Positions 42,345 to 43,164 of a DNA stretch of 64,000 bases are shown piece after piece. Under the pieces are notes generated by a model. It saw only the letters and a list, made by a program, of their open reading frames with translations. It ran no database searches and was not told the origin of the DNA. The stretch is from assembly GCF_009914755.1 (NCBI RefSeq), contig NC_060935.1; one strand, 5' to 3'. This DNA is from the human T2T-CHM13v2.0 reference genome, Homo sapiens. The first letter of the stretch is position 1. Each line of letters opens with the position of its first letter. The translations under genes and the position numbers were made by a program.

Positions 42345-42597
42345 TATCATTATTATTATTGTTATTATTATTATTATTTGAGCTGGAGTCTCGCTCTGTC
42401 GCCCAGGCTGGAGGACATTGGCCTAATCTTGGCTCACTGCCACCTTCACCTCCTGGGTTCAAGCAATTCTTGTGCTTCAGCCTCCCAAGTAGCTGGGATT
42501 ACAGGCACCCGCCACCATGCCCAGCTAATTTTATTGTATTTTTAGTAGAGACTCACCATGTTGGCCAGGCTCATCTCGAACTCCAGACCTCAGGTGA
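42345..42597 (-). mobile_element. AluS whose 5' head is replaced by an inverted duplication
   Basis: Alu consensus stops at gacctcaggtga. Confidence 0.85.
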
Positions 42598-43164
42598 ACT
42601 TCAGATAAGTCTGACAAACCAGCAGCTTTTGGAACTGAGTTTTATTTTTATTTATTTATTTTTAAGACGGTCTTGCTCTGTCACTCCAGCTGGAGTGCAA
42701 TCACAGCTCACTGTAGCCTCAAATTCCTGGGTTCAAGCAATCCTCCTGCCTCAGTTTCCCAAGTTGCTGGAAACTACAGGTACATGCGGCACTGATTTTT
42801 TCTTTACCTTTGATATTCTTCTTCACTAACCCCATTTTCTCCTCCCCCTTTTCCTTTCCTCCTGTCTGTTCCACAACTGTCCTATTCATTCCCTTTCTTC
42901 TTATCACACTCTGTTTCTTATGGACCAATCTTTCACAAGTTCTTTGAATAGCATTTTTCAGGCATGGCCGCATGTACCTGTAGTTTCCAGCAACTTGGGA
43001 AACTGAGGCAGGAGGATTGCTTGAACCCAGGAATTTGAGGCTACAGTGAGCTGTGATTGCACTCCAGCTGGAGTGACAGAGCAAGACCGTCTTAAAAATA
43101 AATAAATAAAAATAAAACTCAGTTCCAAAAGCTGCTGGTTTGTCAGACTTATCTGAAGTTCACC
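42593..43164. repeat. Perfect inverted repeat: 198-bp arms (42593-42790 and 42967-43164), 176-bp spacer
   Basis: No mismatch in a base-by-base reverse-complement comparison; identical peptide in ORFs 42359+ and 43236-. Confidence 0.97.

What the first reader, a model, noticed from the sequence alone, without database searches (positions are those of the whole stretch)
42593..43164. Mismatch-free 198-bp inverted duplication that overwrote an Alu head
Seen: 42593-42790 is the exact reverse complement of 42967-43164, an old diverged Alu monomer plus ~47 bp of unique flank, so these are not two independent insertions. The left copy starts where the antisense Alu reads ...cctcaGGTGA (5-nt microhomology with the donor). 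It ends in CGGC where the Alu 5' end would be, and a TSD remnant (ctgatt) follows. Inference: a double template switch (FoSTeS/MMBIR-like) replaced roughly 65 nt of Alu. Zero divergence implies a very recent event or ongoing homogenisation. The structure could extrude hairpins, invert the 176-bp spacer, or form perfect dsRNA if transcribed.
Basis: partly seen in the sequence, partly recalled or inferred. Interest (0 to 1): 0.7.

Follow-up and report, generated by a model that had tools for sequence, protein, structure and literature searches.

The report
Ordinary template-switch inverted duplication in Alu
A 198-base stretch of human chromosome 11 has an exact mirror-image copy 176 bases away that sits where the head of an old Alu repeat should be; it is likely the scar of a one-off DNA-copying slip, a common and well-described kind of mutation, and no gene is annotated over it.

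Summary
Window 42593-42790 is the exact reverse complement of 42967-43164, 176 nt apart. The arm is an old Alu monomer, its A-tail and 46 nt of single-copy flank. The left copy sits where other Alus carry a further 60 nt, between a 5-nt microhomology and a target-site remnant, so the right arm is the donor. Best explanation: one microhomology-primed double template switch, with about 55 nt lost and about 134 nt gained (inferred; no ancestral allele was available). This is a described class: inverted duplication with deletion, template-switch type 1-4-3-2/3-2-1-4. It is also common: the window holds a second case, and 1 of 20 blind 10-kb loci holds a perfect 98-nt one. Zero mismatches allow an age of up to about 8-15 Myr, so neither very recent origin nor homogenisation is required. 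No transcript is annotated here, and the 176-nt spacer disfavours cruciforms. I did not find the locus in six papers' supplements. Its polymorphism and ape state remain untested. Low interest.

The parts
42340..42345 (.). left target-site-duplication remnant of the host Alu (CTGATT)
   Evidence: same 6-mer at 42792-42797, the longest word shared by the two flanks; TSD role inferred
42346..42379 (-). degenerate (ATT)n tail of the host Alu
   Evidence: sequence
42380..42597 (-). host Alu body, antisense, broken off 60 nt short of its 5' end
   Evidence: aligns to other Alus up to 42597; most other Alus carry about 60 further nt; 42598-42657 has 19% mean identity to that continuation
42593..42597 (+). 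junction microhomology GGTGA shared by host Alu and donor end
   Evidence: 7 of 14 in-window Alus read GGTGA and 7 AGTGA here; 3 of the 5 closest genome-wide Alus read GGTGA
42593..42790 (-). left arm: derived inverted copy of 42967-43164
   Evidence: exact reverse complement; interrupts the host Alu
42787..42790 (+). possible second microhomology (CGGC) at the expected Alu 5' end; 2-4 nt
   Evidence: position before the TSD remnant; 1 of 14 Alus has CGGCC, central GC kept in 10-11 of 14; inferred
42791..42966 (.). 176-nt spacer, 75% pyrimidine on +, single copy; begins with the right TSD remnant (42792-42797) and ends with the uncopied start of the donor Alu monomer
42959..43118 (+). donor element: old Alu right-monomer-like copy with A-rich tail (FRAM or truncated AluJ; label recalled, not from a call)
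   Evidence: 74% identity to the right half of a full-length in-window Alu; best non-self identity of long hits about 75%
42967..43164 (+). right arm: donor tract
   Evidence: Alu homology extends past its inner end to 42959-42961
43119..43164 (+). 46 nt of non-Alu flank carried along in the copy
   Evidence: found only at the two arms

Best explanation
This is an exact 198-nt inverted duplication standing in place of the head of an older antisense Alu, likely made in one event by a microhomology-primed double template switch during DNA synthesis. Shown: exact arms, truncated host Alu, target-site remnant on both sides, 4-5-nt microhomology at the outer junction, donor on the right. Inferred steps, simplest version: a nascent minus strand moving leftwards had copied the donor and the spacer. 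It stalled at the Alu 5' end (42790), folded back over a loop of about 176 nt, primed at 42967-42970 on 2-4 nt of microhomology, and copied its own strand out to 43164. It then re-annealed to the Alu at GGTGA (42593-42597), skipping about 55 nt, for a net gain of about 134 nt. The mirror route (rightward synthesis that switches to the other strand at 43164 and returns at 42790) gives the same product and cannot be told apart. It is most likely a neutral scar that arose within the last 8-15 Myr, more likely on the human side of the human-chimpanzee split (inferred from P = 0.09 for zero mismatches at 1.2% divergence).
For: Exact arms with sharp ends. Non-Alu flank copied along, present twice only. 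60 nt missing from the host Alu. Microhomology of 4-5 nt, chance 0.1-1%. No target-site duplication or poly(A) of the copy's own. Geometry equals the 1-4-3-2 / 3-2-1-4 types, reported as the majority pattern among ape template switches, which give one inverted repeat (PMC7954356). 54% of sequenced 1000 Genomes inversions were inverted duplications, nearly all <1 kb and within 5 kb of the source (PMC4617611). 277 inverted duplications with median 284 bp, mostly with 1-15-bp microhomology (PMC12350158). The same architecture turned up twice more here: window 12906-13000/13178-13272 and L017:4512-4609/5112-5209.
Against: No ancestral allele or ape orthologue was available, so the deletion is inferred from other Alus. 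The inner microhomology is uncertain (1 of 14 Alus has CGGCC; base 42791 is A where the Alu end is usually C or T). The tract is longer than the gold-standard ape events (maximum 128 nt), though within the human range reported elsewhere (up to 318 bp). Sequence alone cannot separate a replication switch from fold-back end-joining at a break. The locus was not found in any variant table searched.
Confidence: 0.8

Rival explanations
1. A double-strand break in the Alu head was repaired by polymerase-theta-type end joining: the right end snapped back, copied 198 nt and annealed to the left end at GGTGA. Same product, different enzyme and trigger.
For: Deletion plus fold-back templated insertion with priming and resolving microhomologies is the described TMEJ footprint (PMC11541566, passages).
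Against: In that study templates were typically under 10 bp and the search was strongly limited in distance; here the tract is 198 nt and primed 176 nt away.
Confidence: 0.1
2. The duplication is older than it looks, and the arms are kept identical by recurrent intra-locus conversion or spacer inversion.
For: Zero mismatches including 2 CpGs; close perfect inverted repeats can interact, above all in single-stranded DNA (PMC10164571).
Against: Not needed: P(0 mismatches) is 0.3-0.8 for an age of 1-6 Myr at 0.5e-9 per site per year. The sister repeat with a 177-nt spacer keeps 2 mismatches in 95 nt.
Confidence: 0.04
3. Assembly artefact (fold-back chimera) or a change private to the CHM13 cell line.
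For: Only one assembly was seen; the locus is absent from the tables searched.
Against: The copy returns to the Alu's target-site remnant after a clean loss of about 55 nt with microhomology, which a read chimera would not be expected to do (inference). The structure is under 600 nt, far below long-read length. Absence from polymorphism tables is also expected if the event is fixed.
Confidence: 0.04
4. RNA-mediated copy: the Alu monomer retrotransposed with 46 nt of 3' flank (a transduction) into the neighbouring Alu.
For: The order Alu body, A-tail, 3' flank resembles a 3' transduction.
Against: No terminal poly(A) after the flank and no target-site duplication of the copy; a deletion at the site; the source lies only 176 nt away; the donor is about 25% diverged from other Alus.
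Confidence: 0.02

Closest known systems
Short-range template-switch mutation, four-point model, type 1-4-3-2 / 3-2-1-4 (Walker et al. 2021, PMC7954356; Loytynoja 2022, PMC9435742)
   Same: Two reciprocal switches, a reverse-complement copy of nearby sequence replacing a short stretch, one perfect inverted repeat, net length gain (65% of gold-standard events gain length).
   Different: The tract (198 nt) is far above their median (12 nt) and above the ape maximum (128 nt). The source lies beyond the 150-bp context used in PMC9435742, so such scans would likely miss it.
Small inverted duplication (inv-dup), with deletion at the insertion site (Sudmant et al. 2015, PMC4617611; Schloissnig et al. 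2025, PMC12350158; ARC-SV preprint 10.1101/200170)
   Same: Under 1 kb, inserted within 5 kb of the source, microhomology at junctions, not retrotransposition-linked; 'interspersed inverted duplication with deletion' is a named class.
   Different: Those are polymorphic or lineage-resolved calls; here the allele state is unknown and the locus was not found in the tables I could search.
MMBIR-linked templated insertion (MMB-TI; PMC8421209)
   Same: Inverted copy of a nearby template with 2-12-bp microhomology; about 100 germline events of 25 bp or more per person (103 and 99 in two individuals).
   Different: Their search is limited to templates within 100 bp and to read length; this tract is longer and primed farther away.
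Inverted Alu pair (independent insertions)
   Same: Opposed Alu-derived sequence at short range; several such pairs at 80-88% identity occur within 1 kb in the window and background.
   Different: This pair is 100% identical, includes 46 nt of non-Alu flank and breaks a third Alu, so it is a copy, not two insertions.

Membership tests
Template-switch mutation, type 1-4-3-2 / 3-2-1-4 | inserted tract is the reverse complement of nearby sequence | tested here: met
   198 of 198 nt, 176 nt away
Template-switch mutation, type 1-4-3-2 / 3-2-1-4 | synthesis returns to the original template close to where it left (points 1 and 4 adjacent, donor outside) | tested here: met
   host Alu ends at 42597 and its TSD remnant resumes at 42792; about 60 nt of Alu head missing relative to other Alus
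Template-switch mutation, type 1-4-3-2 / 3-2-1-4 | ancestral allele observed in another haplotype or outgroup | not testable with these tools
   no ape or second human genome is held (no relatives); no paralogous copy of the flank or spacer
Small inverted duplication with deletion (inv-dup) | duplicated stretch <1 kb within 5 kb of its source | tested here: met
   198 nt, 176 nt apart; criterion from PMC4617611
Small inverted duplication with deletion (inv-dup) | 1-15-bp microhomology at the outer junction | tested here: met
   4-5 nt (14 of 14 aligned Alus end in GTGA)
Small inverted duplication with deletion (inv-dup) | microhomology at the inner junction | tested here: inconclusive
   2-4 nt depending on the lost Alu's CpG state
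Polymerase-theta templated insertion (TMEJ) | short template (typically <10 bp) close to the break | tested here: not met
   198 nt against 'typically less than 10 bp' (PMC11541566)
L1-mediated Alu retrotransposition / 3' transduction | terminal poly(A) and target-site duplication flanking the new copy | tested here: not met
   the copy ends in non-A flank and abuts Alu sequence with a deletion
Structured RNA gene or hairpin RNA precursor | match to an Rfam family | tested here: not met
   0 matches at gathering score in 41500-44500; no transcript in the supplied gene table
Structured RNA gene or hairpin RNA precursor | transcription, A-to-I editing or small RNAs across both arms | not testable with these tools
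   no expression data available

The most novel reading that the evidence does not exclude
Fold-back duplications of about 100-200 nt are a frequent, largely uncatalogued class of fixed scars in the human genome, missed by short-range template-switch scans and by repeat maps with a 200-bp floor. Their loop size is set by a chromatin or lagging-strand unit: the two cases in this window have spacers of 176 and 177 nt, about one nucleosome repeat or Okazaki fragment (lengths recalled). A genome-wide spacer histogram would then show a peak near 170-190 nt and mark lagging-strand fold-back as the source. Against it: only two cases, one of them the selected finding, and the third case has a 502-nt spacer.
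Probability: 0.06. Interest if true: 0.5.

Novelty: new member of a known kind. Interest (0 to 1): 0.13.

Why it matters
As it stands it matters little. It is a clean teaching example of a template-switch scar that can be oriented without an outgroup, because it breaks a repeat of known shape. Structures like this can be mis-called as inversions by short-read methods (in PMC4617611 most sequenced 'inversions' were inverted duplications). It would matter more if the spacer were found in both orientations among humans, if a transcript crossed both arms and formed a perfect 198-bp duplex, or if loop sizes of such events peaked at nucleosome length. None of these has support yet.

Tried and rejected
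(1) Two independent Alu insertions: rejected; non-Alu flank is shared and chance identity is about 1e-11. (2) A pre-existing hairpin between the host Alu and the donor monomer (70% over 167 nt) as guide for the switches: the pairing register (sum 85337 in inferred ancestral coordinates) is 286 and 152 nt off the two switch registers (85623, 85489), so it does not set the junctions. (3) Unusual structure in the template strand: 42780-43200 minus folds no better than shuffles (z 0.78; 79 of 100 fold as well); a small stem-loop lies at the outer end of the tract and was not tested further. (4) Rfam: 0 matches. (5) A paralogous copy keeping the ancestral state: none. (6) Looking for the locus in print. 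Supplements were searched with coordinate prefixes, with no chr11 row found: PMC12350158 (main table cut when stored), PMC12350169 (1 PDF unreadable), PMC10150506, PMC4617611 (only 1 file held), PMC6467913, PMC7954356, PMC12633414 (10 kb of text only). The GRCh38 and GRCh37 prefixes came from recalled offsets, not from a call, so a miss is weak evidence. A text search for RAB30/PCF11 with SV terms listed 20 of 115 papers, none naming either gene. Supplements of PMC9435742 were not searched, those of 10.1101/200170 are closed, and two further call-set papers are not held; any of these may list the locus. (7) The background sample is limited to 20 loci of 10 kb, so the frequency estimate is wide.

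Full report
Observation. The window lies at T2T chr11:83,018,001-83,082,000. Positions 42593-42790 are the exact reverse complement of 42967-43164: 198 nt, no mismatch, no extension at either end, 176 nt apart. The next longest exact inverted repeat in the window is 54 nt. The tract consists of 127 nt of Alu body, a 25-nt A-rich tail and 46 nt of non-Alu flank. The flank occurs only at the two arms, in the window and genome-wide (2 of 2 candidates); the spacer matches only itself. Two independent old Alus would match over 127 nt with probability about 1e-11. The feature is real and is a copy.

Direction and junctions. An antisense Alu begins at 42380 and aligns to other Alus up to 42597, then stops. 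Most of the 42 other in-window Alus printed carry about 60 more nt to their 5' end, as do the five closest genome-wide Alus. The host's next 60 nt match that continuation at 19% on average. Of 14 in-window Alus aligned through the break, 7 read GGTGA and 7 AGTGA at the place of 42593-42597, so the outer junction has 4-5 nt shared by host and donor (chance 0.1-1%). CTGATT flanks the Alu tail at 42340-42345 and recurs at 42792-42797, as a target-site remnant would. The inner junction is less certain: CGGCC is seen in 1 of 14 Alus at the matching place, with the central G and C kept in 10 and 11 of 14, and base 42791 is A. On the right, Alu homology extends to 42959-42961, beyond the arm end, in 12 of 38 hits. 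The right arm is therefore the donor and the left arm the derived copy. About 55 nt were lost outright (64 with both microhomologies) and about 134 nt gained. These figures are inferred from other Alus, since no ancestral allele was available.

Mechanism. In the four-point model the switch points lie in the order 1-4-3-2 for rightward synthesis, or 3-2-1-4 for leftward synthesis. PMC7954356 (passages and part 1 of one results section read) reports these as the majority patterns, each giving one inverted repeat, and notes that an intra-strand switch needs point 2 before point 1. The leftward reading meets that condition: the nascent minus strand folds back over the spacer, primes at 42967, copies itself to 43164 and returns at GGTGA. 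The rightward, inter-strand reading gives the same product. All steps are inferred; I put 0.8 on a replication-type double switch. Polymerase-theta end joining leaves the same kind of footprint, but its templates were typically under 10 bp in PMC11541566 (passages), so I give it 0.1. A 3' transduction is rejected because the copy has no terminal poly(A) or target-site duplication and sits in a deletion. A pre-existing 70% inverted pair between host and donor Alus does not set the junctions: its register is 152 and 286 nt off.

Age. With two arms diverging at twice the mutation rate, zero mismatches in 198 nt has probability 0.82 at 0.1% divergence, 0.09 at 1.2% and 0.04 at 1.6%. The 95% upper age is 7.6 Myr at 1e-9 and 15 Myr at 0.5e-9 per site per year (rates assumed). 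The event is more likely human-lineage than older, fixed or polymorphic, but 'very recent' does not follow and homogenisation is not needed. A sister structure in the window, with a 177-nt spacer, keeps 2 mismatches in 95 nt, which tells weakly against efficient homogenisation at this geometry.

How common. I scanned the window and 20 loci of 10 kb placed on a round-number grid of chromosomes 1-4 for inverted repeats of 50 nt or more, at least 93% identical, with spacers up to 1 kb. 1 of 20 background loci has one: a perfect 98-nt pair, 502 nt apart (L017). It is the middle of an old Alu copied into another dispersed repeat, with abrupt ends. The window has one more besides the finding (12906-13000/13178-13272). 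There the right copy follows directly on a dispersed repeat that is continuous up to 13172 in another genomic copy. One event in 0.2 Mb gives 0.13-28 per Mb (95% interval), that is hundreds to tens of thousands per genome. The sample is small, and the finding is twice as long as either comparison case.

What is known. PMC4617611 (passages): 54% of the inversion sites characterised by sequence were inverted duplications, nearly all under 1 kb and within 5 kb of the other copy. PMC12350158 (passages): 277 inverted duplications, median 284 bp, mostly with 1-15-bp microhomology, read as replicative. PMC9435742 (parts 1-2 of 6 read): 3049-3934 template-switch patterns per person, the longest 318 bp, found with 150 bp of context. 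PMC8421209 (passages): 103 and 99 germline templated insertions of 25 bp or more in two people. PMC11794170 (passages) maps inverted pairs of 200 bp or more, just above this one. The finding works like these and meets the tested features of the inv-dup/template-switch class; the ancestral-allele criterion could not be tested. I did not find this locus in the supplements of seven papers (for PMC12350169, PMC10150506, PMC6467913 and PMC12633414 I saw only these supplement searches and, for some, the search listing) or in a text search on the flanking genes. Several files were cut, unreadable or not held, and the GRCh38/GRCh37 prefixes rest on recalled offsets, so this does not show that it is unreported.

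Function. Folded as RNA, the region makes the expected 198-bp stem (-413 kcal/mol, z -41 against 20 shuffles), which only restates the repeat. The supplied gene table places it about 27 kb from LINC02951 and 32 kb from PCF11, with only a pseudogene 7 kb away and no transcript over it; Rfam gives 0 matches. In yeast, widening the spacer of an Alu inverted repeat from 12 to 100 bp cut recombination 300-fold, and from 12 to 200 bp cut rearrangements about 20-fold; the constraint is lifted in long single-stranded DNA (PMC10164571, passages). A cruciform is thus unlikely, a transient hairpin in single-stranded DNA is possible, and there is no evidence of consequence.

Verdict. This is a new member of a known, frequent kind; interest 0.13. 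The boldest reading left open, at about 6%, is that the equal spacers of the two in-window cases (176 and 177 nt) reflect a nucleosome- or Okazaki-sized fold-back loop (lengths recalled). A genome-wide spacer histogram would test it; the third case (502 nt) does not fit.

Noticed in passing
window 12906-13000 / 13178-13272: A second near-perfect inverted duplication: 95 nt, 2 mismatches, 177-nt spacer. The tail end of an antisense Alu appears copied rightwards into a dispersed repeat (Tigger-like by recall; continuity to 13172 shown in L033). Likely an older event of the same kind, with the donor on the left.
   Followed up: partly
L017:4512-4609 / 5112-5209 (G000:C2, near 120,004,512): A perfect 98-nt inverted copy of the middle of an old Alu, 502 nt from its source, interrupting another dispersed repeat (L1-like by recall); found in 1 of 20 blind 10-kb loci.
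   Followed up: partly
window 26324-26383 / 26449-26508: Inverted pair of 60 nt at 90% identity with a 65-nt spacer; could be two Alu ends or an old event.
   Followed up: no
window about 43128-43168: The copied tract ends within a small predicted stem-loop on the minus strand; whether it triggered the return switch is untested, and the region as a whole folds no better than shuffles.
   Followed up: partly
L013:2724-2774 / 4758-4808: Inverted pair of 51 nt at 96% identity, 1983 nt apart; not examined.
   Followed up: no
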